Positions 36,107 to 50,114 of a stretch of 64,000 nucleotides of DNA are shown here, in pieces. Position 1 is the first letter of the stretch; each line of letters begins with the position of its first letter. Origin of the DNA: an uncultured Chitinophagales bacterium (GTDB taxonomy: Bacteria; Bacteroidota; Rhodothermia; Balneolales; CAYWCV01); NCBI GenBank assembly GCA_964456845.1, contig CAYWCV010000002.1, forward strand, positions 15,314 to 79,313, in the 5' to 3' direction. The notes beneath the pieces were generated by a model that was given only the letters and a program-made list of their open reading frames with translations, did no database searches and had not been told where the DNA came from. The position numbers and the translations under genes are program-made.

Positions 36107-39100
36107 TTACTTGACTAGGGCAACTTTGCTTGTTGCCCTGAACGAACCCGCATGCATTTCAACGATGTACACACCACTGGCCAAATGGGATGCATCCCAC
36201 ACAATGTTGTGGTAACCAGCACCCAAGATTCGATCGGCCAAGACGGCAACTTTTCGACCCGTTACGTCATAAACGTGGATGCGAACGGCCGAAGGACTCG
36301 GCAGCGCGAAGCTGATATTGGTGGTTGGATTGAACGGGTTTGGATAGGCATTATTTAAATGATACTCCTGCGGCAGTTGTGCGTCTGCATAAAGATCGAC
36401 TTGACCGGGATTTCCGATTACCCAGTCAAATAGGTGCTTCCCTTCAAGAAGGTAGAGCTCCAGTGTTCCGTCTTGTTCGAACATCAACTTTCTGCCCGTC
36501 TTCGAATCAAAGAGGTAGGAATGTAATCCATCCACCAAAAGAACTTTCAAGGTATAGTAACCCGATTCCGATACCTCAATGGATGTTTCCTCCGTAATGA
36601 CCTGGCTTGTGTTCGGGTGCGAGAGGGTGGACCAAAAACGAATTCGATCATGTATATCATCCTTATATAGGGTAATGCTTGCACTACTGAAGGTCCCTGG
36701 TGGTGCTACGTGATCATGCTTGTCGTAGCCTTCGGTTGCGTCGTCTGCTAATAGGATAACCGTCGATCCAAGTAGTGATTCTTGGTCGTAGAGTTCCAGT
36801 GAAACCTGGCGTAGTTTTCCGGATCGGTCGTTACCATCCGTCTCAATGCCAGCAGCAGCAGCCATTTGAGCTTGTGCTGGGTAGGGGATTTCCAGCTCGG
36901 TACGGTTAGAACGGTTAAAGAAGTAATACCCAATGTTTACTTGCATCGTCGTCGACGGAACCCATAACCCTTCGAAGGCAAATATCGGATCGGTGATCGC
37001 ATTCATCTGTTGCACCGCAGACCATGACACCGCCCTCTCAAAAGGGTTGCCAATGATGTTCCATCCGGGATTAAGCGGAATGCGATAGCTGTCTTGGTTT
37101 GTAAGGGTTACAGCAGGGATTGTCTGATTTACAACCCAATCTCGTTTTGCCAGAATCCAGAAGCCGCGGCCGGGGCGCAGATTGAATCCAGAGCTGTTGC
37201 GCGACACTTCAACAGTGTTGCTCAGGCCGTTGGCATTGCTGCCCGTTTCTGCATAGGCATTCCAATCGGATCTCTGCTTGCCGTAATCTTCGAAGGTGAA
37301 AACAATAGGAAGGTTGGCGTCGCCTGCAATTGCCGCCAAGCGGTAGGACGACTGCCGTGTATTCGCAAAAGGAATCGATTTTTGGACGTTTACTTGGCCT
37401 GCATATGCGAATGTCCTGAGTTGGCCTGTTTCAGACCACTGACTTGGTCCGCTCACATTGAAGGCGCGGACCCTCCAGAAATAATTCTGGTCAAAGTTTT
37501 GAAGGAATACTGTAAAAGTCGTATCGGCACGCTCTTCGGTTGTAAGCAGTACGGTGCTAAAATCGGGTTGTGTGGAAAGTTGCAGTTGATACCTGTCGGC
37601 ATCTGGACGGGATTTCCATACAAAGGTTTGCGTACGTTTTGCGTTGGTCAACCCATCAGCGGGCGATGCCGAAACGGGTGGGTCGGGTACTTTTGGAGCC
37701 GTCGTAAATTGGGTGGTATCCGACCAAGCACTGAGCCCGCTCACGTTGCGTGACGCAACCCGTACCCAATATGTCTGTTCGGGTTTCAGGTTGTTCAGAA
37801 TCAGCGTAACATCGTTGTAGTTCTGGGCATCCACAACAAGCTCACTTTCAAAAATATCGGACTCTGATACCTGAATGTCATATCCTTGAGCCCGTGCTGC
37901 TGGCTCCCACTGTAGTGCTAACGGCATGAATATCATCTGGGCACCATCCAGCGGATTCAGGATGCTTGTTGGAGCGGGAAGTTCGGGAAGCGTGCGAAAC
38001 ATTCGCACTTCCGACCATGCACTCTCTCCAGAGCTGTTGAACGCCTTGACCCTCCAGTAATGGATCGTGTTGAACGGAAGCGGTGCGGTTGCCGTCAAGT
38101 CAAGCTTGGTGGCCGTGATGTTTGAATCATCAATAACAAGCTGTGTCTCAAAATCTACGCTGAGCGATAGCTGCAATTGATAGCGCTCCACAAACGAGTT
38201 AGATTGCCATTCCATAATGATCGGCTGTGGAATGAAGTCCAAGTTGTTTGCAGGGGTTAACAGCGACGGCGCAAGCGGTGGCTCGGGAATTGTCGTGAAC
38301 GATCTCACCTGCGACCACGCACCTTGTCCACCCGAATTAAATGCCGCAACGCGCCAATAATACGTTTGGCCCTTATTCAGATTTGTAAGACTGAAAAATG
38401 TGTTTGTCACGTTTACATCTGCCAATACGGCGACATTTAAGTCGGGAATGTTCGACAGCTGGACGCGATAACCATCACTGCGCGTGGATGGATTCCAACG
38501 TAGCAGGACGGGTATCGGAGTATTAATCGTCTGCGTAGGAGGGGTGATCAATACCACTTGGTCTGGTATCTGAACAACCGTTGTGAACGATCGTACTTCT
38601 GACCAGTCTCCAAAGCCGGCTGTGTTTCTGGCTCTGACCCTCCAGTAGTATGTTGTTTGGGGCAATAATGCGCTTAGAAGAAATTCTGTGGCTGCCTGGC
38701 CATCGGATGCAAACACGCTTGTTTGAAATGTGGAGTCGACCGAGACTTCCATGCTGTATGAAGTAGCTCCCTGAACAGTCGACCAGTCGATAAGTAAAGG
38801 CGTCTTTGCATTTGAAAAATTATTGTCCGGTGCAACTAGTGCCGGCACACCCGGAGTGACAACAACCGTTCTGAAGGTCCTTGTCTCCGACCATGAGCTT
38901 TCGCCAGCCTGATTTATCGCAGAGATCCTCCAATAGTACCTTTCTGACGTGAGAAGATCCGACAAAATGAAAAATGTGGATTGAACACCAGTTGTGTCGA
39001 CAAGCCTTGCCGAAAAATTGGCGTCCAGCGAAAGTTGTACCCTATAAGACGAAGCACCACTGGTTGGTTGCCACACAAGCTGAATTGTGGATGGAATGTC

Positions 39101-41380
39101 AATGGCATCATTCCCGGGCAAGCTTAGCACGGGTGTTGCAGTGGTACTTGCATTGATTGTAACAAACAAGAACGTACTCGACCAGTCGCCATCACCACCC
39201 GGGTTGGATGCCCGCACTCTCCAATAGTAGGTCCTGTTTGGAATAAGGTCGCGAGCTTGGTACTGTCTTTCGCTGGTCTCGGCATTTACTACCAACGTTG
39301 CAAACGACTGTGTTGTCGAGACCTGTATGCGATACCTGTCGGCTCGTGCCGCCTCGTGCCAGCTCAAATTTGGTGCTAACAGCACACCATTCTGGTTGTT
39401 CGAAGGATTAGCCAAATTCACTTGCGATGGTGGCGAAATTATTGTCTTGAGGCTTCTAACAGCAGACCATTCGGATTCGCCTCCAATATTGACAGCTCTT
39501 ACACGCCAATAGTACGTAGTGTTAGCGTTGAGTTTGGTGATAATGATCTCGGTCGAACTTGTTACCTCATCAAAAAAAGTCTCCGCAAAAGCATCGGTGG
39601 TGGAAATTTGAATCTGGAACTCACTGGCACTAAGTACGGGTCCCCATTGGAACTTCACGGAAAGGGTGTCGCTACCCACCAGTCCGTTCTCGGGTGCAAC
39701 CGGAAGTGGCGCAGCTGGCGGCAGGTTAACAGTGAACTGGCGTACAGGTGACCAGTCGCTTTCCGATCCCACCCGCTCCGCTTTAAGTCTCCAATAGTAG
39801 GTGTTGTTATCCGACAATCCTGAAACGGCAAAAGTGGTTTGGCTAAGTCCACTTTCGTCCGCTATGAGCGTGTTTTCAAAATTGCTCGAGTTTGCAATCT
39901 GGAGCCAATAGGATTGTGCCTGTGGAACCGAATTCCAGGCAAAATCTACGTTGGAACCCAACCCGCTCTGCGACACTTGAGGGCTTATTGCCAAAGGGTA
40001 TGCAAGTCGCGTTCGAAAAGTAGCGACATCCGACCAAGCGCTTTCGCCTAAATTGTTGACGGCCTTGATACGGTAATAATAATCAGACAATCCATTACCT
40101 AGATCCAGCTGTAGCTGATTGGCGTCTGATAGGATGACATCGTGCTCAACTGCCGTAAATTCGTTGCTGTTCGAAACCTGCAATTGAAACGAAAATGCGT
40201 TATTGACGGGCAACCATCTAAAAATCGGACTTGTTGTAACTTCGCTGGAGCTGTTTACTGGAAAAACTGCGATTGGTGCATCCGGAAGGTCTAGCGCAGA
40301 TCTTCCAAAGTAATCGTGGTTTTGGCTGCCAATTTTGGAAAAAGAGCCTCCTAAATGAATTACACCATTCAAGATGGAGACGGCATTCACCCGTTCATTT
40401 GTCTCTCCCGGATTCTTCCACGAACCCCCTTCAATGTTGGCTAGGTTCAGAATTGACGGATCGGTGCTGGATGTAAATTCGCCGCCGATGACCATATCCG
40501 TATTATCGCTCGAAATATCGTAAACCGTGCCGTTGACACCCGTTCCAAGTGTCGACCAAGCCGTTCCATTCCAGGTAGATACTGCTCCGCTAAACTCTCC
40601 GCCCACTACAAGCTGCCCACCGTGCAGCGAGATGGCATACACTACCCCATCTAAACCTGAGCCGATGGCACCCCAAGCCGTTCCGTTCCATCGTGCAATT
40701 CGTTCGGTCGCCACACCACCTGCCAATGTAAATTCCCCACCGGCGATGAGGTCATCTCCGTTCGAATAAAGTGCGTAAACAGGGGCATCTGCCCCAGACC
40801 CCAACGGCTCCCATTGTGTTCCGGTCCAACGCGCTATGTGGTTGAGCGTAATGCCCCCCGATGAAGTGAATTCCCCGGCTATGTAAATGCTTCCCTTGTG
40901 GTTAACTATCGCCCGAACAGTCCCATTTACACCGGCGCCCAAGGCCTGCCAGGCAACCCCGTCCCATCGCACGATATGGTTCACCGTCTGGCTTCCTACC
41001 TCGGTGAAGTCGCCTCCAACGATTAAAAAGTTGTCTGCCGTTTCAAGTGCATATACGGGCCCATTTAACCCGGATTGAAGCGATTTCCACTCATTGCCCG
41101 ACCAACGGGCAATATGGTTCACCAATTTACCGCCAGCAGTCTGGAAATCACCGCCAACATACCATGTATCATTTTTATATATAATTGTATGAACGGGTCC
41201 GTCTAGGCCTTGGCCGAAGTCGAGCATTGAGTGTGCCTGGTCCATATCTTGACCCTGTCGGGCATGGACGACTCCCACAACCACAAAAAGAATTGCGATA
41301 GAGATCCAGATAAGGCGCCACCGTGACGGTGAAACTACCTTGTCATCTGAGTACTTGCTATGTTGGAAAATCCTTTGCAA
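36107..41380 (-). CDS. Giant T9SS-secreted surface protein: 7-blade beta-propeller, 10 Fn3-like repeats, unknown domain, and Por/T9SS C-terminal sorting domain
   Basis: 1757 aa with N-terminal TM/signal 'WRLIWISIAILFVVVGVVHA'. Seven ~46-aa repeats follow the pattern 'GG.F...GG...N.IARW.G..W..LG.G.NG.VYA'. Ten ~96-aa repeats end in 'YYWRVRA.N..G.S.WS..R.F.T'. The C-terminus 'YPNPFNPTTNISF...IHVYDVTGRKV...ASGVYIVEM...KVALVK' is a classic type A T9SS CTD. Confidence 0.85.
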   Translation of the reverse strand: MQRIFQHSKYSDDKVVSPSRWRLIWISIAILFVVVGVVHARQGQDMDQAHSMLDFGQGLDGPVHTIIYKNDTWYVGGDFQTAGGKLVNHIARWSGNEWKSLQSGLNGPVYALETADNFLIVGGDFTEVGSQTVNHIVRWDGVAWQALGAGVNGTVRAIVNHKGSIYIAGEFTSSGGITLNHIARWTGTQWEPLGSGADAPVYALYSNGDDLIAGGEFTLAGGVATERIARWNGTAWGAIGSGLDGVVYAISLHGGQLVVGGEFSGAVSTWNGTAWSTLGTGVNGTVYDISSDNTDMVIGGEFTSSTDPSILNLANIEGGSWKNPGETNERVNAVSILNGVIHLGGSFSKIGSQNHDYFGRSALDLPDAPIAVFPVNSSSEVTTSPIFRWLPVNNAFSFQLQVSNSNEFTAVEHDVILSDANQLQLDLGNGLSDYYYRIKAVNNLGESAWSDVATFRTRLAYPLAISPQVSQSGLGSNVDFAWNSVPQAQSYWLQIANSSNFENTLIADESGLSQTTFAVSGLSDNNTYYWRLKAERVGSESDWSPVRQFTVNLPPAAPLPVAPENGLVGSDTLSVKFQWGPVLSASEFQIQISTTDAFAETFFDEVTSSTEIIITKLNANTTYYWRVRAVNIGGESEWSAVRSLKTIISPPSQVNLANPSNNQNGVLLAPNLSWHEAARADRYRIQVSTTQSFATLVVNAETSERQYQARDLIPNRTYYWRVRASNPGGDGDWSSTFLFVTINASTTATPVLSLPGNDAIDIPSTIQLVWQPTSGASSYRVQLSLDANFSARLVDTTGVQSTFFILSDLLTSERYYWRISAINQAGESSWSETRTFRTVVVTPGVPALVAPDNNFSNAKTPLLIDWSTVQGATSYSMEVSVDSTFQTSVFASDGQAATEFLLSALLPQTTYYWRVRARNTAGFGDWSEVRSFTTVVQIPDQVVLITPPTQTINTPIPVLLRWNPSTRSDGYRVQLSNIPDLNVAVLADVNVTNTFFSLTNLNKGQTYYWRVAAFNSGGQGAWSQVRSFTTIPEPPLAPSLLTPANNLDFIPQPIIMEWQSNSFVERYQLQLSLSVDFETQLVIDDSNITATKLDLTATAPLPFNTIHYWRVKAFNSSGESAWSEVRMFRTLPELPAPTSILNPLDGAQMIFMPLALQWEPAARAQGYDIQVSESDIFESELVVDAQNYNDVTLILNNLKPEQTYWVRVASRNVSGLSAWSDTTQFTTAPKVPDPPVSASPADGLTNAKRTQTFVWKSRPDADRYQLQLSTQPDFSTVLLTTEERADTTFTVFLQNFDQNYFWRVRAFNVSGPSQWSETGQLRTFAYAGQVNVQKSIPFANTRQSSYRLAAIAGDANLPIVFTFEDYGKQRSDWNAYAETGSNANGLSNTVEVSRNSSGFNLRPGRGFWILAKRDWVVNQTIPAVTLTNQDSYRIPLNPGWNIIGNPFERAVSWSAVQQMNAITDPIFAFEGLWVPSTTMQVNIGYYFFNRSNRTELEIPYPAQAQMAAAAGIETDGNDRSGKLRQVSLELYDQESLLGSTVILLADDATEGYDKHDHVAPPGTFSSASITLYKDDIHDRIRFWSTLSHPNTSQVITEETSIEVSESGYYTLKVLLVDGLHSYLFDSKTGRKLMFEQDGTLELYLLEGKHLFDWVIGNPGQVDLYADAQLPQEYHLNNAYPNPFNPTTNISFALPSPSAVRIHVYDVTGRKVAVLADRILGAGYHNIVWDASHLASGVYIVEMHAGSFRATSKVALVK
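36110..36352 (-). other. T9SS type A C-terminal sorting domain (sub-feature of the giant protein)
   Basis: The last ~81 aa match the Por_Secre_tail pattern (NPF..TT.I.F.L......I.VYDV.GR.V......G.H...WD.....ASGVY). Confidence 0.85.
37409..40285 (-). repeat. Tandem array of 10 Fn3-like coding repeats (~96 aa each)
   Basis: Ten occurrences of the terminal motif (Y/H/T)(Y/F)W(R/V)(V/L/I)... .N..G.(S/G).WS. The array boundaries (aa ~366-1324) were placed by hand and are approximate. Confidence 0.75.
40295..41200 (-). repeat. Seven beta-propeller blade repeats (~46 aa each)
   Basis: aa ~61-362. Seven copies of V(Y/H/R)A(I/L)....(D/G)..(Y/L)(V/I)(G/A)G(D/E)F...G......(I/V)ARW.G..W..LG.G. Boundaries approximate. 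Confidence 0.7.
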
Positions 41381-41387
41381 GCCTTGA

Positions 41388-42368
41388 CTAATTAGATGGT
41401 GGGGTCGGGGGTCCGGGTAATTGTGCGTCTGGCCTCAACAGAAACCATGCCGTAGTGGAAGTACCGGCAATGCCGACCAACGTCCACAGCCACCAGCGCG
41501 TGCGTCTGGCCGGCACAATACGTGGAATGGCCGCAACTTGAACGGGCTGAAACGTGATGGGAAACGTATACAGGGAATCCGCCTTGACTTCTTGGTTCAG
41601 GATAATTTCTTGATAACCCTCTTTGTTTACCGAAATGATATACATCCCCGGTGCAAAGCTAATGGTGTCCCTGATGCCGATAACCGGATGTCGACGCACC
41701 AGGTTGTTCATGTCTAGAAACTCGACAGTAAAACCAGGGTGGTTAGCTTCAAAGGTTAGCCTGCCCGTTCGTGGTACGTCATAAACAGGTTCTTCCACCA
41801 CCTTCAGACGGTAGGTCGCCATCTTTTGCTGGTGCAATTCATGCACTTGGTAGTAAATGTCGAAATCCTTTACGTTCCGGATTTGAATGTGCCGGTCAAT
41901 CCGCGTGATGTTGGGTATGAAAAGGAATACAAATCGAAAACTGATGCTGCCATCGGGACGTATATTGACGTTACGCGATTCGAAACGGATGTTCTGAATT
42001 CTCAGCTGTTCATTCCGAAACCAGTTGAGCACGTCTTCGGCAGAGAAGTATCGCTGAACGCTGGGATCTAGCACGAGTCTGACAATGCCCTCGTCTTGGG
42101 TCACCTGCGGTATGATGTTGTCCACATTCTGAATTTCGACAAGCTCTAGTGCAAACTTGCCGGGCTTGAGCAGGCGCTGGCCGCCGTTGACCTGTGCGGC
42201 AGCGAATTGCACGTTGACGAATGCACACAACATGACCGTCCATATCAATACGGTATAAGGACCAAAGCGTTGTGGTGCTCTGCGATTCACGTATAAATGA
42301 CCCCTGAAAATGTTGACAAACCCCTCAGTTCCAAGCAATGGATTCCTATAGATAAATAAAGATACCAA
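41388..42368 (-). CDS. PEGA-like domain membrane protein (hypothetical)
   Basis: 326 aa. N-terminal hydrophobic 'YTVLIWTVMLCAFVNVQFAAAQ'. PEGA-like 'HPGFTVEF...APGMYIISVNKEGYQEIIL'. C-terminal TM 'WWLWTLVGIAGTSTTAWFLL', then a Pro-rich tail. Confidence 0.45.
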   Translation of the reverse strand: MVSLFIYRNPLLGTEGFVNIFRGHLYVNRRAPQRFGPYTVLIWTVMLCAFVNVQFAAAQVNGGQRLLKPGKFALELVEIQNVDNIIPQVTQDEGIVRLVLDPSVQRYFSAEDVLNWFRNEQLRIQNIRFESRNVNIRPDGSISFRFVFLFIPNITRIDRHIQIRNVKDFDIYYQVHELHQQKMATYRLKVVEEPVYDVPRTGRLTFEANHPGFTVEFLDMNNLVRRHPVIGIRDTISFAPGMYIISVNKEGYQEIILNQEVKADSLYTFPITFQPVQVAAIPRIVPARRTRWWLWTLVGIAGTSTTAWFLLRPDAQLPGPPTPPSN

Positions 42369-42408: not shown

Positions 42409-43704
42409 TCAGCGGTTTACCTGAACGCGAAAGATGGGGGGTTGACCGGTGGGTGCCGGAAACGGTGCCTTCAGCTGCTGTATATGGTCCATTCGTACGG
42501 CAAGAACGGCACGAATGTCCGACTTTTTCCACGCATACCGGCCTTGGGGATTAATGACGAATGTGTCAGTAATTCGTAGTATATGCTCATAAGCAAGCTC
42601 GGGGTGCCGCACCATCCATATACCTCGCACGACAACCTCATCGCCCTCGACTTTCCGGGCGCTTATCGTGTTGTAGTAGGCCGGCAAGCCCTGACCGACC
42701 ACCGACCCAAGTCGGTCAATACCATCCCCGCCAGTGAGTGTAAACCTTTCCACTTCTTTTCCTTCGACCGCCAATTCCACGCTGAAATCAGGGTCTGACA
42801 GTAGGTCGCGATATCTCAAGTCGGGTGGAAGCGATACGGTTGCCCACCGATGCGCCACCAACGAAGCGATCCTTCCTTCTGGAATCGCCAACTGTTCACG
42901 GTTTGTCGGAACCCAGTGACTCGATTGATTTTTTCGAGCGAATGAACGCTCGTTGGTGTAATAGTCAATTACCGGCAATTGGAAGGAATAGGCATTCGCT
43001 CGCATAGTAAGTCCGTAAAAAACACTCGGCTCATACTCAACAGATACGTTACCCCCATGGTTCGTAGTAAGCATGGTCACAAGATAGTCGCGGTAGAGTA
43101 CACTTTGACCTTGCAAGAGCAGATCGAGTGTGGGTGTGATTCTGACACGAAGATTGCCTGAGCCCGAGTCTGATGCCAGTACAGGTCCATTTTCGTCGAT
43201 TGTGAGGTAAAAGCTGCTGGGATTTAGTTCCGGGTTCTGCCTCACAAATTGCAGTAGCTGAGCTTCCTTGCTGCCAAGAAAGGGCGTTTCCACCACGATA
43301 TAATTCGAGGCGACCACACTTCTCAGATAGGCTTCGTCTCTTGTAAGTGCAGACCAAATGATTCTGGCTGCGATGATCTGTGCTGGCTTAGAGATATACG
43401 TGTCGGCGATAGGACCCAAATCGAGAAACTCACCTACGTCGTAAATCTGTCCGTCAACGGTGAGATGAAATTCCAGTTTACGCTCTCCCTCAGACGTGTC
43501 GAGCGTTCTGACGATGCTGGTACCTAAAAACGATGGGCCGCGCACCTCGTCTTCAGCTGTAACCGTTGCGTTGACACGTTTGGCCCAAGCATCGTAGACC
43601 ACCCTGGGAAAAGAGGGAACAAACTGATCGTTTGCAACCAGACTAGCCGGAAGGCAAAGATAGATGACCGTGGCAATGATGATCAAGCTTCGTGTCATCA
43701 TCAA
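42409..43704 (-). CDS. Secreted hypothetical protein (no family recognised)
   Basis: 431 aa with signal peptide 'MMMTRSLIIIATVIYLCLPASLVAN'. Track start 43704 is TTG, and ATG codons follow at 43701 and 43698. Coding status is supported by length and tight operon packing only. Confidence 0.5.
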   Translation of the reverse strand: MMMTRSLIIIATVIYLCLPASLVANDQFVPSFPRVVYDAWAKRVNATVTAEDEVRGPSFLGTSIVRTLDTSEGERKLEFHLTVDGQIYDVGEFLDLGPIADTYISKPAQIIAARIIWSALTRDEAYLRSVVASNYIVVETPFLGSKEAQLLQFVRQNPELNPSSFYLTIDENGPVLASDSGSGNLRVRITPTLDLLLQGQSVLYRDYLVTMLTTNHGGNVSVEYEPSVFYGLTMRANAYSFQLPVIDYYTNERSFARKNQSSHWVPTNREQLAIPEGRIASLVAHRWATVSLPPDLRYRDLLSDPDFSVELAVEGKEVERFTLTGGDGIDRLGSVVGQGLPAYYNTISARKVEGDEVVVRGIWMVRHPELAYEHILRITDTFVINPQGRYAWKKSDIRAVLAVRMDHIQQLKAPFPAPTGQPPIFRVQVNR

Positions 43705-43706
43705 GC

Positions 43707-44732
43707 CTATCTGATGATTTCGAACATGTTCAGATCAATCAGGGTGCCATCCTCAAACGGTTCGGGCTGCCAGGCCCTCACATAGATCAAAGGCTGGTCT
43801 TCGTTGCTGAAATCGATCATGAAGGAAAGGTATCCTTCGTCGGAATAGGTAGATGACGACCATTTTTGAAAAACCTGCACCCAGTAGATCTCATCATACT
43901 CCGGGTGTTTTAGGATATTGACACCACTGAAGTCGATATTGACGAAAGCGTTGTTGCGGAAGATGACGTTGCGCAGGCGGTCGATGTACTCTGCCTTCGT
44001 CTGGCGGTTGAGTCGAAACCGTTCGCGCACCACCTCGTTGTCTCGAGTACGAACCATGCTTCCACTGTCGCCATATTCAGAAATACGTGTTCCAGTAATG
44101 ATGAGCGCCTTGTCGCTGAACTGGAGGTCGATATAATCGGCATCCTTTCGATTATAGGCTGTCTTGAACTGCTCGAGGAAGTTTATGATTACACGCCGTC
44201 TGTAGTCATCCTCCAGGCTTACGGCGTTTTGGATGATCATGTTGAACTGATGTTCCTCGATGGCAAACCGGGCATCTGTCAACCTGCCGTCAGCATCAAA
44301 GTTCAAGATCAACTCGAGCGACCTGCCGCCGGAACTCGAATCGGAAGTGACGTACATCCTCCTGATTTCGTAGGTGTTCTGGTTCAGCATGATCACCTGC
44401 GACCGTAGTTCTCCGGCGTTCGTGCGAATACCCGTTTCTTTTATGAGTTCATTGAGACGCTCAACACCGTAGGCACCATCACCTGCAGCTATGTTTGGCG
44501 GCAGCAGTATACTGCCTACCGATGGGTTGTAACGGTTGATGGCCGTCATTACGGCACCCGAGTTTCGCTCCAGCATGGAGACGATGTCTCTTCCCGGACC
44601 GTCTGTGAGGATGACCTTTACTTCCTGAGATAACTGAGCGTGAGCATGCACCTGCGGCAATGCCGTCAGCAGCAGTGCGAGAACGAGTAGGCGAAGCATG
44701 GCGAGGGGCTGAATAAATCGTGTGGACATCAT
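43707..44732 (-). CDS. Secreted hypothetical protein (C-terminal half possibly NTF2/SnoaL-like)
   Basis: ATG 44732 overlaps the cyclase TGA (ATGA). Signal peptide 'LAMLRLLVLALLLTALPQVHAHAQ'. 'RRRVIINFLEQFKTAYNRKDADYIDLQFSDKALIITG' loosely resembles NTF2-like domain openings; this is a weak visual call. Confidence 0.5.
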   Translation of the reverse strand: MMSTRFIQPLAMLRLLVLALLLTALPQVHAHAQLSQEVKVILTDGPGRDIVSMLERNSGAVMTAINRYNPSVGSILLPPNIAAGDGAYGVERLNELIKETGIRTNAGELRSQVIMLNQNTYEIRRMYVTSDSSSGGRSLELILNFDADGRLTDARFAIEEHQFNMIIQNAVSLEDDYRRRVIINFLEQFKTAYNRKDADYIDLQFSDKALIITGTRISEYGDSGSMVRTRDNEVVRERFRLNRQTKAEYIDRLRNVIFRNNAFVNIDFSGVNILKHPEYDEIYWVQVFQKWSSSTYSDEGYLSFMIDFSNEDQPLIYVRAWQPEPFEDGTLIDLNMFEIIR

Positions 44733-45856
44733 TGTAGAGCTCTTACCCAAATGACTCTCTTTCCGGAATAACGTTGAGAGAGTGTGCTTATTTCCTCATT
44801 CGTCTTAAGGTCGACATATCGAGAATTTGTGTAAACAAGGTATGCATCGATCGGCGATGAGCCGGTTGCAGCGGGATCTAGAACAGCAACCAGAACCCCT
44901 TCAAGGCTGGAAAGGCTATCGCGCGACGTATAGAAGGACAGTGCCCCCATGTCGTTGCCTCTCAGTAGCGCACGCTGCAAATCGTACCAGTTACTCGATG
45001 AGGTCAATGTGGCGTATTGCGACTTAAACCGGTACAGAGGATCCGTCGGATTCGTGCTCTCGGTCGGGGTTTGCCGTGGTGGAGTAGTGTTAGTAGTGTT
45101 TTGACTGGCGGAACCGCTGGTGTCTGGAATAACCGGTACCGTTGTGCTCGTGTCGCGTTTTGATACGGTGGTATCTGGAGCTTCGATTGCCAAACTGTCG
45201 GACGGGGTGATGGTATTCGACGTATCAAACATACGTCCTCCCCAAATGAGGTACGCCGCAATCAAGACGGCTATTACCCCCAACGTTGACAGACCAGCTG
45301 CTGACGTGGGGCTGAAGTGATACTTTTGATTCCCATCTAACTCGATGCTAAACAGCTCAACGGGTTTTTGGATGCTTTTCAGCCGCTGTGGACCTATCCG
45401 TCTTATGGTTATGTCGATCTTGTTGTAGATCTGGTCATAAACGGAGCGTGTAATAACGATGCCGCCGGGCTGTGCCTGAGTGTAGATGCGCGAAGCAAGG
45501 TTCACACCGTCGCCGTAGACGTCGTTTGACTCAAACACGACATCTCCGATATGAAGGCCGATTCTCAGATTAATTTTTCGCTCCTCGGCCACTGATCCGT
45601 TATATCTGCGCATCTCGCGCTGAATGGCAATGGCGCATCGAGCCGCCTGCAGGGCACTTTGGAACTCAATTAAAAAGGCATCGCCCATGGTCTTGATTTC
45701 GTTGCCACCGAGCGACCTGAAGATCGGGCGCAGCATCTCGCGATGCAGCTGCAAGAGTTCGAGAGCCAACTCCTCGTTCCGCTGTGTCATGGCACCGTAC
45801 CCGACAACGTCGGTAAACATGATGGCAGTAAGTCTACGCTCAGCCGAAGACAGCAT
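44729..45856 (-). CDS. Membrane-anchored class III adenylate/guanylate cyclase with extracytoplasmic C-terminal domain
   Basis: 375 aa. CHD motifs 'AIMFTDVVGYG', 'IKTMGDAFLIEF', 'RIGLHIGDV' and 'YGDGVNLASRI'. Single TM 'LSTLGVIAVLIAAYLIWGG', an S/T/P-rich linker, then a ~110-aa unknown domain. Confidence 0.85.
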   Translation of the reverse strand: MLSSAERRLTAIMFTDVVGYGAMTQRNEELALELLQLHREMLRPIFRSLGGNEIKTMGDAFLIEFQSALQAARCAIAIQREMRRYNGSVAEERKINLRIGLHIGDVVFESNDVYGDGVNLASRIYTQAQPGGIVITRSVYDQIYNKIDITIRRIGPQRLKSIQKPVELFSIELDGNQKYHFSPTSAAGLSTLGVIAVLIAAYLIWGGRMFDTSNTITPSDSLAIEAPDTTVSKRDTSTTVPVIPDTSGSASQNTTNTTPPRQTPTESTNPTDPLYRFKSQYATLTSSSNWYDLQRALLRGNDMGALSFYTSRDSLSSLEGVLVAVLDPAATGSSPIDAYLVYTNSRYVDLKTNEEISTLSQRYSGKRVIWVRALQ

Positions 45857-45922: not shown

Positions 45923-46933
45923 TTAAGCGCGCCGAAGACTTCGGCTGACATATACCAGCACGAGTGGGGTTGTGACAATAACAACCACAAAAACGAGGGC
46001 ATGGGATGCTAATGCGTAGGTGAATCCTGCTGTCTCTGGAATGCCATAGAGGATATAAAGGCTTTTTTGAACTAACAGGTGATACGTGCCAATACCACCA
46101 GGCGACGGTATCACCACACCAACCGACGACACCACCGTTACTACTAATGCCTCGGCAAGACCCAAGTTTTCCATCCCACTGCCGGGAAGCATCGAAAACG
46201 GAAGGCCCGCCATCAGAATGTAGCAGCACCACAGACCTGTTGTGAACAACAAAAATCGAAATGGGTGCTGGATGCTTCGTATTGAAAGCAAGCCTGCCTT
46301 GAAGTGAGCGCCAAACGTGATCAGCCGCTCCCTAAAGGAGCGAACGTAAACGTACCTTCGTGCCATGTATCCGATTGTCCACCATACTGTTATTATAGAC
46401 AGCACACCTGCAATCATCACTAACAGCAGTTTGACATAAAGACCACCCAGCTCTTCGGTGTTATCGAGTCCCAATAGGCCAATAATCAACCTCGAATCAG
46501 TGAAAACACAGAAAAAGACAATCATCATCAGAACAAAAAGCACAACCAAATCGATGATTCTTTCGAGCACCACCGTACCCATCACAGCAGCGACGGGCTT
46601 GTCTTCTTTTTTGGCCACGTAATAACAGCGTGTGATCTCCCCGAGGCGTGGCACGGCGTAATTAACGGCATACCCGTTCATCACCCCGGCAAGCAGGATA
46701 CGCCGCCTGGAAGGTATGCGGTCGTGTTCGGCGAGGAGCTTCCATCGCTCCATTCGAAGCCAGAAGCTTGCAAGGGTGGCCCCTACAAAGTATACAACCC
46801 AACCCGTCTGTATGCGCGACCACATGTCGCCAACCTCGCGTATATCGACGCTGCGAAGTGCCAACCATAGAAAACCACCCCCAATGAGGATGCTGACCGA
46901 AATTTTTATGACGTTCTTTGAGGTGGTGTTCAA
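45923..46933 (-). CDS. Flippase-like / lysylphosphatidylglycerol-synthase-TM-region family membrane protein (UPF0104)
   Basis: 336 aa, polytopic. N-terminus 'KISVSILIGGGFLWLALRSVD' and 'PRLGEITRCYYVAK' are typical of the family (from memory). Confidence 0.65.
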   Translation of the reverse strand: MNTTSKNVIKISVSILIGGGFLWLALRSVDIREVGDMWSRIQTGWVVYFVGATLASFWLRMERWKLLAEHDRIPSRRRILLAGVMNGYAVNYAVPRLGEITRCYYVAKKEDKPVAAVMGTVVLERIIDLVVLFVLMMIVFFCVFTDSRLIIGLLGLDNTEELGGLYVKLLLVMIAGVLSIITVWWTIGYMARRYVYVRSFRERLITFGAHFKAGLLSIRSIQHPFRFLLFTTGLWCCYILMAGLPFSMLPGSGMENLGLAEALVVTVVSSVGVVIPSPGGIGTYHLLVQKSLYILYGIPETAGFTYALASHALVFVVVIVTTPLVLVYVSRSLRRA

Positions 46934-46954: not shown

Positions 46955-47584
46955 CTAATTCCTAAGGTCGATAATTTCTGCGGATTTAGGGTAATTCAAG
47001 GTGAATACTTGTGCATCCTGCTTTAGAAATTCGCCAAATGAAAACCTGGAGATGATCGTGTTGCCACTTTGGTCGACTGCGGTGATTCGGATGGGGAGTG
47101 CCTTGTCGTCCAACTCAATCTCGATGGCAGTGAAAAGAGCAAACGGGTCGCCGGACGTCAACACCACGGAGCTGTTCTTTCCGTTGCTTGGACCATTTTT
47201 TATCGTGTATTCACTCAACGAGCCATGAAGAAATCGCGACGGCGCATAATCGTCCTCGTCGGCATTATACGGACTAATGATAACCTGGTTCTTCTCTGAG
47301 TTATACACATGCGAGGTGTTGCCGTCGACTATCACTAGCCCCGACCGCATGGAGAGCTTATAACGGCCCTTGTCGATCCAGACCTCGCCCAGCGTGGTGA
47401 GGGTGTCGCCCGTGTACGAGTCTATGAATGAGTGGTTCAGCTGTGAATGGAATAATTCTCCACTAGAGAATCGTGCCCGCAGCGTGTCGAACATCTTGTT
47501 GCCCGTTGACCCAGCCTGGGCAGCGAGCTGCAGAGGTGTAAACGCGGTAAGTACCAGCAATAATGCAAGCAACTTACAGCTCAT
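46955..47584 (-). CDS. lolA: LolA-like outer-membrane lipoprotein carrier protein
   Basis: Start taken at ATG 47584 ('MSCKLLALLLVLTAFTPLQLAAQ'), overlapping the ftsK end by 11 nt. 'F.Q......G......G.VWIDKGRYKL' is a LolA-like pattern, and the ftsK-lolA order is conserved. Confidence 0.7.
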   Translation of the reverse strand: MSCKLLALLLVLTAFTPLQLAAQAGSTGNKMFDTLRARFSSGELFHSQLNHSFIDSYTGDTLTTLGEVWIDKGRYKLSMRSGLVIVDGNTSHVYNSEKNQVIISPYNADEDDYAPSRFLHGSLSEYTIKNGPSNGKNSSVVLTSGDPFALFTAIEIELDDKALPIRITAVDQSGNTIISRFSFGEFLKQDAQVFTLNYPKSAEIIDLRN

Positions 47585-50114
47585 CGAGGTCGCGAAGGTG
47601 TTGTTCGAGTTCCTCTTCGTCGGCAATGAGCACTTGACGGGCAGAACTGCCCTGGTATTTGCCGACGATGCCGGCGTTGAAAAGTTGATCGATAATGCGG
47701 CCTGCACGTCCATAGCCTACCTTTAGCTTTCGTTGAAGTAAGGAAACTGATCCCTGCTGATGTAGCACCACTACTTTGGCCGCATCTTCAAAAAGCGCAT
47801 CTCGTTCCTCAAGGGCAGCCTGATTGCCAGATTCACCGTTTGGATCTTCGATCACTGGCAACATATACCTGCGGTCGTAACCGCGTTGGTTGCCGATGAA
47901 CGAGGTGATACGGTCTACCTCCTCGGTCGAAACGAATGCGTTCTGGATACGAATCATGGGCCCACCCGCCGAGAACAGCATGTCTCCACGTCCAACGAGC
48001 TGATCGGCACCCATAGTATCTAATATGGTGCGCGAGTCAACCTTAGACGCAACCTTGTACGCAATACGTGCCGGGAAGTTGGCTTTGATGGTTCCGGTGA
48101 TCACATTCACCGATGGGCGCTGCGTTGCAACAACCAAGTGGATGCCAACCGCCCTTGCCAGCTGTGCGATACGTGCGATGGGCTCTTCAATTTGCTTGCC
48201 GGCTGTTATCATCAGGTCGGCCAATTCGTCGATGATGACCACGATGTATGGAAGGAGCTTGTGTCCTAAGTCGGGTTCGAGCTGGCCTGCTTTGTACTTG
48301 GTGTTGTATGCCTTGAGATCGCGCACCATCGCCATTTTAAGCAAGTCGTACCGCTCGTCCATCTCCTTACATACGCTGTTCAGTATTTCGAGAACCTGGG
48401 ACGTGTCTGTAATGATGGCCTCCTCAAAGTGAGGCAGGGTGGCTAAAAAGTGGTTTTGTATGTTTTGGTACAGCGACAGCTCAATCTTTTTCGGGTCAAC
48501 GAGGACGAATTTGAGCATCTCGGGGTGGCATTTGAACAGCAGGCACGCCAAAATGGTATTGATGCCAACCGATTTTCCGGATCCAGTGGCACCGGCAATG
48601 AGCAGGTGCGGCATTTTCGTGAGGTCGATCATGAAGACCTCGTTTTCGATGGTCTTCCCGAAAGCGACTGGCAAATCCATGTCGGTCTCGACAAACTTAC
48701 GCGTGTTGATCACCGACCGTGCGAAGACAATTTCGCGTCGGTGATTTGGCACTTCGATACCTACCATGGCTTTACCCGGAATCGGGGCGATGATCCTGAG
48801 CCCATGCACCGCCATGGCCATCTTCAGGTCGTCGGCATAGCTCTCAATTCGGCTGATCTTCACATCGGGAGCCGGGGTGAGCTCGTAAAGGGTCACTGTT
48901 GGGCCGACAATCGCATCGATGCTGATGATGTCGATGCCGTGCCTGCCGAGCTTGTCGAGGATTATCTGCTTCTTCTCGTCAATTTCTGCGTAATCAATCG
49001 GTTTTCCCTCGTTGGGTGGCGTATCGAGGAGATCGATGGTTGGAAAGCTGTACTTAATGTCGGGTACGGTGCGTTCGAGGTCCTTCTGTCGGCGCTTTAG
49101 CTCGTCGTCCGATGCCTCCTCGTCACCTTCGCCGATAAATACCTTCACCTCTACACCATCGGTCTTCGTGGCGACTTCACGCTCCGGTTTTTCGAGTATG
49201 GCTCTTGGTGGCTGTACTTCCACCTCCGCTTGTTCCGAAAGTTCTGCCTGACGCCGTTCTTCGGCCCTTCGCTTTGATTCGGCTATTCGGGCCTGAATGG
49301 CGGCCTCGCGTTCTTCTTCAAGACTTGCTTTTTTGCCGGCAACACCGTTTTTCTCTTCGTTATCGGGTGTGTCTGGGCTTACTTGTCGTCGTACCGGCTT
49401 GGGAGCCGGCTCTTCTTCGTAAGCGACAGGTCGAGTCGGTTCGTTTTTGTTGAGCGCCGCCAACTCGGCTTTAGCCTTTGCTTTCTCCCTGCGGTTAATA
49501 TTCCAGGCCTTGATACGGTCGATCATACCTTGCACATCCTTGTCAATAACGAACAGGCCCGTAACAAGAACCAGCAAGCCGAGAATGATCGGTGTGCCAA
49601 CGTCACCGGTGAATTGCTGGAGCAATTTCGATATCGACGCGCCTACGGCACCGGCCCATTTCAAGCTTAATGCCTCGCCTGCCTCAAACCAATTGATTAA
49701 ATACCCAGCAATTGTGGAGAATAAGAACAACAGGTAGGTACCAAGCATTGTTATACCGTTCAAGCGCAGTAAAGGCTTGCTTCTGAATACATACCATCCG
49801 TACAGCAGACCCAGCATGGGGATAATAAGACTGAAGTAGCCGAAACCATTCCTGACGAATCCATGCGAAATCCATGCGCCTAAGACACCCAGCCCATTTT
49901 TGACTCGCTGCGACTCTTCCGCTCCCGATGTAATACCACCGAAGCCCAAGGCATCGATATGTGCCTGGTCTGCGTCGCTGTAGGTAATGATGCTGACGCC
50001 GATGAGCACCGATATGCCGATGATGACAATACCTAGTATTTCCAGCTTCCGGTGATGCGACAATCCGGAAGCTGCCTGCTCTTTGGCCGATTTTCTGTTC
50101 TTGCGTTTCTCCAT
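47574..50114 (-). CDS. ftsK: DNA translocase FtsK
   Basis: 846 aa. N-terminal TM domain, charged linker, motor with Walker A 'GATGSGKS' and 'VVIIDELADL', and a C-terminal gamma wHTH 'SVSLLQRKLKVGYGRAGRIIDQL'. Confidence 0.95.
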   Translation of the reverse strand: MEKRKNRKSAKEQAASGLSHHRKLEILGIVIIGISVLIGVSIITYSDADQAHIDALGFGGITSGAEESQRVKNGLGVLGAWISHGFVRNGFGYFSLIIPMLGLLYGWYVFRSKPLLRLNGITMLGTYLLFLFSTIAGYLINWFEAGEALSLKWAGAVGASISKLLQQFTGDVGTPIILGLLVLVTGLFVIDKDVQGMIDRIKAWNINRREKAKAKAELAALNKNEPTRPVAYEEEPAPKPVRRQVSPDTPDNEEKNGVAGKKASLEEEREAAIQARIAESKRRAEERRQAELSEQAEVEVQPPRAILEKPEREVATKTDGVEVKVFIGEGDEEASDDELKRRQKDLERTVPDIKYSFPTIDLLDTPPNEGKPIDYAEIDEKKQIILDKLGRHGIDIISIDAIVGPTVTLYELTPAPDVKISRIESYADDLKMAMAVHGLRIIAPIPGKAMVGIEVPNHRREIVFARSVINTRKFVETDMDLPVAFGKTIENEVFMIDLTKMPHLLIAGATGSGKSVGINTILACLLFKCHPEMLKFVLVDPKKIELSLYQNIQNHFLATLPHFEEAIITDTSQVLEILNSVCKEMDERYDLLKMAMVRDLKAYNTKYKAGQLEPDLGHKLLPYIVVIIDELADLMITAGKQIEEPIARIAQLARAVGIHLVVATQRPSVNVITGTIKANFPARIAYKVASKVDSRTILDTMGADQLVGRGDMLFSAGGPMIRIQNAFVSTEEVDRITSFIGNQRGYDRRYMLPVIEDPNGESGNQAALEERDALFEDAAKVVVLHQQGSVSLLQRKLKVGYGRAGRIIDQLFNAGIVGKYQGSSARQVLIADEEELEQHLRDLDEL

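What the first reader, a model, noticed from the sequence alone, without database searches (positions are those of the whole stretch)
42409..44732. Two consecutive signal-peptide proteins with no recognisable family, translationally coupled to the cyclase
The ~341-aa protein starts inside an ATGA overlap with the cyclase stop, and the 431-aa protein starts 5 nt after the 341-aa stop. Both have clear N-terminal signal peptides and no lipobox Cys directly at the cleavage region. I see no repeats and no catalytic motifs. The C-terminal half of the 341-aa protein ('VIINFLEQFKTAYNRKDADYIDLQFSDKALII...') faintly resembles an NTF2/SnoaL-like domain. Such tight coupling suggests stoichiometric partners.
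Basis: inference. Interest (0 to 1): 0.55.

Follow-up and report, generated by a model that had tools for sequence, protein, structure and literature searches.

The report
Conserved periplasmic NTF2-fold pair beside cyclase
The two secreted proteins are real, conserved genes with NTF2-like folds. They belong to two uncharacterised families that sit together in gene clusters across the Bacteroidota-related phyla, and in this lineage the cluster is joined to a membrane adenylate cyclase through the cyclase's outward-facing tail domain.

Summary
On the minus strand, a 341-aa ORF (43707-44732) starts in an ATGA overlap with the cyclase stop. A 430-aa ORF follows 5 nt later (ATG 43701; 431 aa only from TTG 43704). 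Both start with signal-peptide-like segments.

The NTF2 guess was right, and it extends to the second protein:
- ProtA models as two alpha+beta domains, and its C-terminal domain matches NTF2 folds.
- ProtB also gives NTF2/ketosteroid-isomerase-type fold matches.
- Neither passes a curated family threshold.

ProtA's family is wide: 585 loci in species-representative genomes, all from FCB phyla among the 80 kept. ProtB looks narrow (about 20 clusters) but is a remote homologue of family "c1" (hhalign 97-98%). A c1 or ProtB-like gene lies beside ProtA homologues in 66 of 82 loci.

The conserved link is not the cyclase catalytic domain. It is an unannotated domain of about 85 aa at the cyclase's C-terminus ("CTD-X"). 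Elsewhere this domain is fused to Ser/Thr kinases or to weakly LPP20-like secreted proteins, usually encoded immediately upstream of ProtA.

In this subgroup the gene order is X-CTD-X, A, B, a PEGA-type protein, then a giant T9SS surface protein.

Best reading (inferred): ProtA and ProtB are periplasmic partners of CTD-X that modulate cAMP synthesis. Function is untested. Interest is moderate.

The parts
44729..45856 (-). Receptor-type class III adenylate cyclase, 375 aa. It consists of an N-terminal catalytic domain, one transmembrane helix, a Ser/Thr/Pro-rich linker and the C-terminal CTD-X domain.
   Evidence: PF00211 matches at E 2e-20, above its cutoff. The best solved relatives are 3mr7 at E 4.5e-33, Ma1120 and LipJ. 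There is a single hydrophobic segment at aa 181-210.
45332..45856 (-). Cyclase catalytic domain (aa 1-175), predicted cytoplasmic. All six canonical residues are present: D16 and D59 (metal), K55 and D112 (adenine-specifying pair), N119 and R123 (transition state).
   Evidence: The residues were read from the alignment to solved cyclases and the translation. Assigning roles to them rests on established knowledge of class III cyclases.
44732..45049 (-). CTD-X, an unannotated C-terminal domain of about 85-105 aa in the cyclase (aa ~270-375), predicted periplasmic.
   Evidence: Iterative HMM searches find it at the C-terminus of proteins in 33 of 82 related loci. In 26 of those 33 the protein is encoded immediately upstream of the ProtA homologue. 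The alignment is A4. It has no Pfam or PDB sequence match. Its predicted topology is extracytoplasmic in all three architectures.
43707..44732 (-). ProtA, 341 aa. Signal peptide at aa 1-32, an N-terminal alpha+beta domain at aa ~39-156, and a C-terminal NTF2-like domain at aa ~173-322.
   Evidence: ORF and junction. It has 336 homologues. The AlphaFold2 model has pLDDT 86.4. Foldseek matches NTF2 folds, including Bd1075, Pgp2 and TcpC. PF24125 is below threshold here and matches 75 of 78 relatives.
43767..44216 (-). The NTF2-like domain of ProtA. It contains the family's most conserved stretch, E-x-F-x-T-A-Y-N-R-K-D ... F-S-D-K-A-L-I-I-T-G.
   Evidence: Invariant columns are listed, secondary structure and fold matches.
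42409..43701 (-). ProtB, 430 aa from ATG 43701 (431 aa from TTG 43704). Signal peptide at aa 1-23. A multi-domain alpha+beta protein whose clearest NTF2-type cone is at aa ~274-403. It is a remote member of the c1 family.
   Evidence: ORF. Homologues. The AlphaFold2 model has pLDDT 85.9. Foldseek matches ketosteroid isomerase, LDB and iota-carbonic anhydrase NTF2 folds. hhalign against c1 gives 97.3-97.7% with controls below 3%.
41388..42368 (-). Protein C, 326 aa as the longest ORF; the true start is probably later. It has a signal-like segment, a weakly PEGA-like domain and a C-terminal hydrophobic tail.
   Evidence: PEGA matches below threshold at E 0.057. Homologues occupy the same position in L083, L085-L089 and L003, and the family overlaps PEGA-repeat proteins.
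36107..41380 (-). Protein D, 1757 aa. A giant surface protein with beta-propeller repeats, many FN3 domains and a type A T9SS sorting domain at the C-terminus.
   Evidence: fn3 matches at E 7e-50. Por_Secre_tail (E 6e-10) and TIGR04183 both pass their cutoffs. Large proteins sit in the same place in L083, L085, L086, L091, L090, L089, L003 and L087, all but L087 with a T9SS sorting-domain match.

Best explanation
ProtA and ProtB are Sec-exported periplasmic proteins built from NTF2-type domains. They represent two uncharacterised families, A and B/c1, that form the core of a gene module spread across the FCB phyla. The other recurrent parts are a protein ending in the small extracytoplasmic domain CTD-X and a membrane-anchored PEGA-type protein. 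In this Balneolales-like lineage CTD-X is fused, through one transmembrane helix, to a catalytically intact class III adenylate cyclase.

Most likely mechanism: ProtA, probably together with ProtB, binds the periplasmic CTD-X of the cyclase. By binding a ligand or an envelope component in its NTF2 pocket, it changes the dimerisation or activity of the cytoplasmic catalytic domains. An envelope or surface cue, possibly connected with the co-encoded giant T9SS surface protein, would thereby be converted into cAMP.

Shown here: the ORFs, their conservation, the predicted folds, the domain swaps and the gene neighbourhoods.
Inferred: periplasmic location, physical contact between ProtA and CTD-X, and control of cyclase activity.
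For: 1. Same compartment. Both proteins have signal-peptide-like N-termini, kept in 73 of 78 and 35 of 39 relatives. The cyclase has no signal peptide and a single TM at aa 181-210 between the catalytic domain and CTD-X, which places CTD-X outside.
2. CTD-X behaves like a receptor input domain. It is fused behind a single TM to the cyclase (window, L083-L085, L091) and to Ser/Thr kinases (L008, L081). In secreted form it is fused to weakly LPP20-like or PKD-containing proteins.
3. CTD-X and ProtA are adjacent. In 26 of the 33 loci that have CTD-X, it is encoded by the gene immediately upstream of the ProtA homologue, whatever its N-terminal module. The same holds in L087-L089.
4. B/c1 co-occurs with A. 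It is present in 66 of 82 loci, and 79 of 82 have c1/B or CTD-X. ProtB matches c1 at hhalign 97.7% (E 1.5e-12, 355 columns), with controls below 3%.
5. The cyclase looks active. D16, D59, K55, D112, N119 and R123 are all present.
6. The folds suit binding or scaffolding. ProtA's best Pfam and Foldseek matches are the accessory NTF2 domains of Csd6, Pgp2 and Bd1075. In Pgp2 that domain binds peptidoglycan in a pocket (PMC8038945).
7. Other signalling genes recur nearby. CHASE2 proteins, Ser/Thr kinases or cyclases occur in 15 of 82 loci. In L087 a CHASE2-cyclase gene lies divergently next to the operon.
Against: - No interaction or activity was tested, and no complex prediction was possible.
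- Most A-family loci have no signalling enzyme fused to CTD-X, and 49 of 82 loci show no detectable CTD-X at all, including the Bacteroidaceae type. The ancestral job of A and B/c1 therefore cannot be cyclase regulation as such; the cyclase is a lineage-specific add-on.
- CTD-X has no known fold or family.
- The many invariant polar residues in ProtA could equally indicate an enzyme.
- Gene overlap and adjacency are ordinary operon features.
Confidence: 0.4

Rival explanations
1. ProtA and ProtB are a structural or assembly scaffold. Like the tandem NTF2-like VirB8 and TcpC proteins of type IV secretion, they would be periplasmic scaffold subunits of an envelope complex, together with the PEGA-type protein and the CTD-X protein. 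That complex would assemble, anchor or position the co-encoded giant T9SS surface protein. The cyclase would be only one of several interchangeable membrane anchors or outputs.
For: - ProtA matches TcpC (3ub1) over about 297 columns at E about 3e-4, and 6 of 78 relatives hit Pfam TcpC weakly.
- In the loci that share the A-then-B order and are long enough to read, a very large protein follows. This holds for the window, L083, L085, L086, L091, L090, L089, L003 and L087; all but L087 show a T9SS sorting-domain match.
- The partner proteins are of membrane or envelope type: PEGA, TPR, weakly LPP20-like and FGE-sulfatase-like proteins.
Against: - Many A plus c1 loci, including the Bacteroides and Phocaeicola types, show no giant T9SS cargo gene within the 10-kb flanks read.
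- The giant proteins are not homologous to each other across lineages. Some are FN3-based, others FG-GAP or beta-helix.
- The TcpC similarity is at fold level only, with TM-scores of 0.2-0.3, and there are no T4SS genes nearby.
- This model does not explain why CTD-X is repeatedly fused to signalling enzymes.
Confidence: 0.25
2. They are stand-alone ligand-binding or enzymatic NTF2 proteins. ProtA and/or ProtB would bind or chemically modify a periplasmic small molecule or cell-wall component, such as peptidoglycan stems (as in the Pgp2/Csd6 NTF2 domain), lipids (as in MlaC), or a SnoaL/ketosteroid-isomerase-type substrate. The link to the cyclase would be merely regulatory or incidental.
For: - The closest family is the accessory NTF2 domain of Csd6, Pgp2 and Bd1075 (PMC8038945, PMC8938487, PMC4599014).
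- ProtB's best single-domain matches are ketosteroid isomerases.
- ProtA has about 28 invariant positions, many of them polar: E187, Y193, N194, D197, H276, Y283, Q289, W291, D298, D307 and R319.
- The upstream synteny includes LolA-like and LPG_synthase_TM genes.
Against: - There is no catalytic partner domain; no YkuD L,D-carboxypeptidase domain is present.
- Sequence identity to any enzyme is only 8-20%.
- Part of the conserved ProtA motif (F..AYN..D......F.D.A) is, from my own knowledge of the fold, the generic N-terminal helix signature of NTF2-like proteins and not a catalytic motif.
- The LolA and LPG-synthase synteny is seen only within the close clade, so it may simply reflect shared ancestry.
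Confidence: 0.2
3. There is no functional link. The three genes would simply be co-transcribed neighbours, and the overlaps would reflect compact genome organisation.
For: ATGA overlaps and short spacers are common in bacterial operons. The promoter and terminator scans were no better than chance.
Against: The CTD-X to A adjacency and the co-occurrence of A with B/c1 persist across several phyla, despite replacement of the N-terminal module and changes in gene order.
Confidence: 0.05

Closest known systems
Accessory NTF2-like domain of the L,D-carboxypeptidases Csd6 (H. pylori), Pgp2 (C. jejuni) and Bd1075 (Bdellovibrio); Pfam PF24125
   Same: It is the best Pfam match (E 1e-4 in the window protein; 75 of 78 relatives match) and gives the best Foldseek matches (7o21 at E 4e-6, 6xj7 at E 2e-4). 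It is periplasmic, and it is a pocket-bearing NTF2 cone. In Pgp2 the pocket binds peptidoglycan (PMC8038945).
   Different: ProtA has no YkuD catalytic domain. Its score of 23 bits is below the 27-bit gathering cutoff. Identity is about 10-13%. ProtA carries a different N-terminal domain and sits in a completely different gene context.
TcpC / VirB8-like tandem NTF2-like scaffold proteins of type IV secretion (PDB 3ub1; Pfam PF12642)
   Same: Both have two consecutive NTF2-type domains outside the cytoplasm. Foldseek aligns about 297 columns at E about 3e-4, and 6 of 78 relatives give weak PF12642 hits.
   Different: ProtA has a cleavable signal peptide where TcpC has a TM anchor. There are no T4SS genes. 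The window protein itself does not hit PF12642. Global TM-scores are only 0.22-0.30.
Receptor systems that use a separate periplasmic partner protein, such as LuxP-LuxQ or TorT-TorS, and receptor-type class III cyclases with CHASE2 or other extracytoplasmic domains (from my own knowledge)
   Same: The logic is the same. A single-pass or few-pass transducer has a periplasmic input domain and a cytoplasmic enzyme, and a secreted binding protein is encoded next to it.
   Different: The folds are unrelated: NTF2 and CTD-X here, against periplasmic-binding-protein folds, PAS or CHASE there. No interaction has been shown here.
LapD-LapG-LapA control of a giant adhesin by a second messenger in Pseudomonas (from my own knowledge)
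   Same: A giant surface protein is co-encoded with periplasmic proteins and a transmembrane nucleotide-second-messenger protein.
   Different: There is no homology. The messenger there is c-di-GMP, cAMP here. Export there is T1SS, T9SS here. No protease is found here. The resemblance is an analogy only.
FtsZl1 (Tubulin_2, PF13809) neighbourhoods described by Makarova and Koonin 2010 (PMC2875224)
   Same: Seven of the 82 related loci carry a Tubulin_2 protein of about 1035 aa two genes upstream of c1. That paper also notes Ser/Thr kinases and membrane-associated unknowns around FtsZl1.
   Different: The families listed there (vWA, OmpA-like, GTPase, B1-B9) take their representatives from Actinobacteria, Firmicutes and cyanobacteria. 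Its Bacteroides example has a different neighbourhood. The window has no Tubulin_2 gene in the operon.

Membership tests
NTF2-like superfamily (ProtA C-terminal domain) | A cone-shaped alpha+beta fold: N-terminal helices packed against a curved antiparallel sheet | tested here: met
   In the AlphaFold2 model, aa 173-322 have mostly pLDDT above 90. Foldseek finds 19 PDB matches at E <= 1e-3, nearly all of them NTF2-fold proteins.
Pfam PF24125 (Csd6 C-terminal NTF2-like domain) | A score at or above the curated gathering cutoff of 27 bits | tested here: not met
   The score is 23.0 bits at E 1e-4. Of 78 relatives, 75 match at E <= 0.01, the best at 4.3e-6.
Csd6/Pgp2-type L,D-carboxypeptidases | A YkuD-type catalytic domain preceding the NTF2 domain | tested here: not met
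   No YkuD or other catalytic family is found in ProtA at E <= 1. The N-terminal domain has no family match.
TcpC / VirB8-like T4SS scaffold | A PF12642 match, an N-terminal TM anchor and neighbouring T4SS genes | tested here: not met
   The window protein has no PF12642 hit, and only 6 of 78 relatives hit it weakly. The neighbours are the cyclase, the PEGA-type protein and T9SS cargo.
NTF2-like superfamily (ProtB) | At least one NTF2-type cone | tested here: met
   The model has pLDDT 85.9. Foldseek finds 33 matches at E <= 1e-3, to ketosteroid isomerases, LDB self-association domains and the tandem-NTF2 iota-carbonic anhydrase, with TM-scores (normalised to the target) of 0.5-0.65.
c1 family (unnamed; the ~375-aa neighbour of ProtA homologues) | End-to-end profile similarity | tested here: met
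   hhalign gives 97.7% (E 1.5e-12, 355 columns) and 97.3% (E 1.7e-11). Five control families give below 3%. The ProtB HMM hits the c1 member L046 at E 1.7e-5.
Class III adenylate cyclase (upstream gene) | PF00211 above its cutoff; two metal-binding Asp; a Lys/Asp adenine-specifying pair; transition-state Asn and Arg | tested here: met
   PF00211 scores 73.5 bits against a cutoff of 21.9. D16, D59, K55, D112, N119 and R123 were read from the alignment to 3mr7 and Ma1120. Enzyme activity was not tested.
Sec/signal peptidase I secreted proteins (ProtA, ProtB) | A tripartite signal peptide with a small-x-small cleavage site and no lipobox | tested here: inconclusive
   The sequences fit by inspection and by a hydrophobicity scan. 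No SignalP-type predictor and no experiment was available.
T9SS type A cargo (downstream 1757-aa protein) | A C-terminal sorting domain, TIGR04183 / PF18962, above its cutoff | tested here: met
   TIGR04183 scores 36.9 bits against a cutoff of 23. PF18962 scores 39.7 bits against a cutoff of 27.
SnoaL / ketosteroid-isomerase-type NTF2 enzymes | Family-specific catalytic residues in the pocket | not testable with these tools
   Only whole-model Foldseek scores are returned. No residue-level superposition or coordinates were available, and identity is 8-20%.
Anti-phage defence cyclase systems (Pycsar) | A PycC cyclase with an adjacent effector that matches PADLOC models | tested here: not met
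   ProtA, ProtB and protein C have no PADLOC hit. The cyclase shows only generic weak PycC similarity at E 1.4e-7.

The most novel reading that the evidence does not exclude
A, B/c1, the CTD-X protein and the PEGA-type protein would together form a previously undescribed envelope-spanning apparatus shared across the FCB superphylum. It would couple large cell-surface proteins (T9SS-exported adhesins in environmental lineages) to cytoplasmic signalling. The output module would be interchangeable: an adenylate cyclase here, a Ser/Thr kinase elsewhere, and possibly CHASE2 or FtsZl1-tubulin-like partners in others. That would make it a surface or adhesion sensing device, analogous in logic to LapD/LapG/LapA or Wsp but unrelated in parts.
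Probability: 0.15. Interest if true: 0.8.

Novelty: new variant of a known kind. Interest (0 to 1): 0.5.

Why it matters
If the model is right, three unannotated families would become a definable module found in hundreds of FCB genomes, including gut Bacteroides, Prevotella and Phocaeicola. The three families are A, B/c1 and the CTD-X domain. The model would also give a concrete, testable example of how a single-pass receptor-type adenylate cyclase or Ser/Thr kinase in these phyla receives a periplasmic signal.

Practical gains:
- It justifies new family definitions for A, B/c1 and CTD-X.
- It corrects the impression that ProtB is an orphan.
- It points to tractable organisms in which the module could be deleted.

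If the proteins turn out to be simple structural or binding proteins, the result is still a useful annotation but an ordinary one.

Tried and rejected
- A third word-indexed protein search, run with the ProtB alignment, returned no new sequences.
- A direct profile comparison of ProtA against ProtB showed no relationship (1.6%). Domain-by-domain hhalign of the ProtA and ProtB segments likewise found none, and no internal sequence repeats.
- Tandem ProtA paralogues: I first read proteins of 540-810 aa in the Bacteroidaceae and Prevotella loci this way. That was a single-linkage clustering artefact caused by one over-long ORF (L015). The ProtA HMM does not hit them and hhalign gives 4%, so the idea is rejected.
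- A hidden CTD-X was looked for in those long proteins, in c6 and in c1. None was found.
- Profile searches of A2, A3 and A4 against PDB sequences gave only noise.
- NCBIfam and PADLOC gave nothing for ProtA, ProtB or protein C.
- Promoter and terminator scans were at chance level, so operon boundaries are not defined by them.
- Rfam and tRNA scans of the window were empty.
- Literature searches found no prior description. Terms tried: PEGA+NTF2+LPP20, and NTF2-like+T9SS.
- The Pfam name 'Cds6' appears to be Csd6 of H. pylori; this is my inference, resting on the Csd6 literature (one search returned only unrelated 'CDS6' uses).
- The FtsZl1 paper's associated families do not appear to correspond to these; no sequence comparison was made.
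The closest named relatives are Balneolaceae MAGs.
Full report
**1. What is in the window**

All the relevant genes lie on the minus strand. In order of transcription they are:
- an LPG_synthase_TM protein (45923-46933);
- a 375-aa cyclase (44729-45856);
- ProtA (43707-44732, 341 aa);
- ProtB (42409-43701, 430 aa from ATG; 431 aa from TTG 43704);
- a 326-aa ORF (41388-42368), called protein C here;
- a 1757-aa protein (36107-41380), called protein D here.

The sequence shows the cyclase stop and the ProtA start sharing ATGA. The ProtB ATG follows the ProtA stop after 5 nt. Public gene calls use exactly the 341-aa and 430-aa forms. Both proteins begin with a basic n-region, a hydrophobic core and a plausible signal peptidase I site (AHA|Q and LVA|N). 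Such N-termini are kept in 73 of 78 ProtA relatives and 35 of 39 ProtB relatives. The only discrepancy is the trivial 430 versus 431 aa.

**2. Folds**

Neither protein reaches the cutoff of any Pfam, NCBIfam or PADLOC model.

ProtA scores 23 bits against PF24125, below the 27-bit cutoff. PF24125 is the NTF2-like C-terminal domain of the cell-shape L,D-carboxypeptidase Csd6. The same model matches 75 of 78 family members at E <= 0.01. The AlphaFold2 model built on a 78-sequence alignment has mean pLDDT 86.4. It shows an N-terminal domain of helices followed by four strands (aa ~39-156) and a C-terminal NTF2 cone (aa ~173-322). Foldseek against the PDB returns NTF2 folds almost exclusively. The top matches are Bd1075 and Pgp2, and TcpC, which has two NTF2-like domains, aligns over about 297 columns.

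ProtB was modelled on 39 sequences with pLDDT 85.9. It also returns NTF2-type folds: ketosteroid isomerases, LDB self-association domains and the tandem-NTF2 iota-carbonic anhydrase.

The two proteins show no detectable sequence relationship to each other.

**3. Distribution**

ProtA has 336 relatives in the word-indexed search. Every one of the 80 loci kept that carries a taxonomic label comes from FCB phyla: Bacteroides, Prevotella, Phocaeicola, Tannerella, Butyricimonas, Melioribacteraceae, Ignavibacteriaceae, Caldithrix, Cloacimonadota, Balneolales and Rhodothermales. The few source names are 'hypothetical protein' and, once, 'nuclear transport factor 2 family protein'.

ProtB looked narrow at first. 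It has 26 word-indexed hits, no more when searched with a profile, and only 20 clusters among 1.84 billion representative proteins. Profile-profile comparison changes that picture. ProtB is an end-to-end remote homologue of 'c1', a family of about 375 aa without annotation. A c1 or ProtB-like gene lies next to ProtA homologues in 66 of 82 loci. The hhalign results are 97.7% (E 1.5e-12, 355 columns) and 97.3% on an independent alignment. Five other neighbour families give below 3% as controls.

**4. The conserved link to the cyclase is its tail, not its catalytic domain**

The last ~100 residues of the cyclase seed an iterative search that finds a domain of about 85 aa, called CTD-X here. It lies at the C-terminus of proteins in 33 of 82 loci. 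In 26 of those it belongs to the gene immediately upstream of the ProtA homologue. CTD-X has no Pfam or PDB sequence match.

Its N-terminal partner varies:
- a weakly LPP20-like secreted protein, in most loci;
- a Ser/Thr kinase followed by a single TM (L008, L081);
- a PKD-containing secreted protein (L003, L087, L088; the 673-aa upstream protein of L089 has no Pfam match);
- the class III cyclase followed by a single TM, in the window's clade.

In every architecture the predicted topology places CTD-X outside the cytoplasm.

Within the window's clade the block is kept. L083, L084 and L091 retain FtsK, LolA-like, LPG-synthase, cyclase, A and B; L085 starts within the LPG-synthase gene, so only its part of the block from there onwards can be read. 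L083, L085 and L091 extend through C and D as well. This spans ProtB identities down to 43%. At 42-44% ProtA identity the cyclase is replaced by PKD-CTD-X. In L087 a separate CHASE2-cyclase gene sits divergently next to the operon.

**5. The wider module**

Three arrangements recur (corrected):
- c1, LPP20-like-CTD-X, A, then a PEGA- or TPR-type protein. This is the pattern in environmental Bacteroidota, Ignavibacteriota, Calditrichota and Cloacimonadota.
- c6, a long protein, c1, A, then a TPR protein. This is the Bacteroidaceae pattern. The family c6 is homologous to the N-terminal part of the LPP20-like protein (96.8%).
- X-CTD-X, A, B, a PEGA-type protein C, then a giant surface protein. 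This pattern occurs in the window and in L083, L085, L086, L091, L090, L089, L003 and L087.

FGE-sulfatase-domain proteins occur in 12 of 82 loci, and Ser/Thr kinases, CHASE2 proteins or cyclases in 15 of 82. Seven loci carry a Tubulin_2 (FtsZl1) protein two genes upstream of c1. The 2010 description of FtsZl1 neighbourhoods does not list these families.

**6. The cyclase**

PF00211 is well above its cutoff. The closest solved relatives are 3mr7, Ma1120 and LipJ. The alignment shows both metal-binding aspartates (D16, D59), the adenine-specifying Lys/Asp pair (K55, D112) and the transition-state Asn/Arg (N119, R123). By the established rules for class III cyclases this predicts an active homodimeric adenylate cyclase. 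Activity was not measured.

**7. Interpretation**

The evidence establishes five things:
- two secreted-type NTF2-fold proteins;
- their membership of two co-occurring families;
- an extracytoplasmic domain, CTD-X, that is nearly always encoded next to ProtA;
- repeated fusion of CTD-X to receptor-type signalling enzymes;
- an apparently competent cyclase in this lineage.

The most economical mechanism is that ProtA, with ProtB, docks on CTD-X in the periplasm and controls cyclase activity in response to something bound by the NTF2 pocket. The peptidoglycan-binding pocket of the related Pgp2 NTF2 domain (PMC8038945) makes a cell-wall ligand one candidate. I give this 0.4.

The main weakness is that most loci have no signalling enzyme, so the families' core role must be more general. 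A scaffold or assembly role tied to the giant T9SS surface protein (0.25) and a stand-alone binding or enzymatic role (0.2) both remain open. Mere co-transcription is unlikely, given the cross-phylum conservation.

**8. Comparison with known systems, and novelty**

At fold level both proteins belong to the NTF2-like superfamily. ProtA is nearest to the Csd6/Pgp2/Bd1075 accessory domain and to TcpC/VirB8-like tandem NTF2 proteins. It fails the membership tests for both: it scores below cutoff, has no YkuD domain, and has neither a TM anchor nor T4SS neighbours.

As a system, the logic resembles receptor enzymes that use a separately encoded periplasmic partner, such as LuxPQ. More loosely, it resembles the LapD/LapG/LapA control of a giant adhesin. 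Both are analogies drawn from my own knowledge, not homologies. I found no publication describing the A, B/c1 or CTD-X families or their association.

I therefore rate it a new variant of a known kind, of moderate interest. It is a well-conserved, widespread and unannotated envelope module with a plausible signalling role, but its function is untested and nothing in it contradicts current understanding.

Noticed in passing
L018, L029, L055, L059, L071, L072, L073 (for example L072:3815-6922): A protein of about 1035 aa with a strong Tubulin_2 (PF13809, FtsZl1) match at E 2e-61. In six of the seven loci it lies two genes upstream of c1 in the same-strand run containing the ProtA homologue. The published FtsZl1 neighbourhoods do not mention these partner families.
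   Followed up: partly
L087:3926-6016 (minus strand in the locus): A 696-aa CHASE2 plus Guanylate_cyc protein is encoded divergently, right next to a PKD-CTD-X, A, B, C and giant-protein operon. A cyclase is thus associated with the module a second time, but as a separate gene.
   Followed up: no
window 34315-35967 (minus strand): A 550-aa ORF with no Pfam match lies 139 nt downstream of the giant T9SS protein. ORFs of matching size (535-549 aa) occupy the same position in L083, L086 and L091, but I did not test whether they are homologous. It may belong to the same unit.
   Followed up: partly
window 41388-42368 and 46955-47713 (minus strand): The longest-ORF starts look over-extended. Protein C is 326 aa here, against 254-304 aa in the called genes of relatives. 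The LolA-like ORF (252 aa) overlaps the end of FtsK by about 140 nt, whereas its homologues are called at 209-211 aa.
   Followed up: no
L088:8990-12115: In this locus the homologue of protein C is fused to a large WD40 beta-propeller (1041 aa), and no B-like gene follows ProtA.
   Followed up: no
L001 and L090 (L001:148-2361; L090:2263-4344): The PEGA-repeat proteins of the module also carry DUF5683. Large FGE-sulfatase-domain proteins (828 and 1230 aa) sit in the same operon in the Ca. Hatepunaea locus.
   Followed up: no
L015:8978-10924: An over-long ORF joins the ProtA homologue to upstream sequence. In my single-linkage clustering it falsely merged the ProtA family with an unrelated family of 540-810 aa.
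   Followed up: yes
L018, L027, L073: A few Bacteroidales loci appear to carry true extra ProtA-family copies in tandem; the phmmer search gave 86 hits in 82 loci.
   Followed up: no
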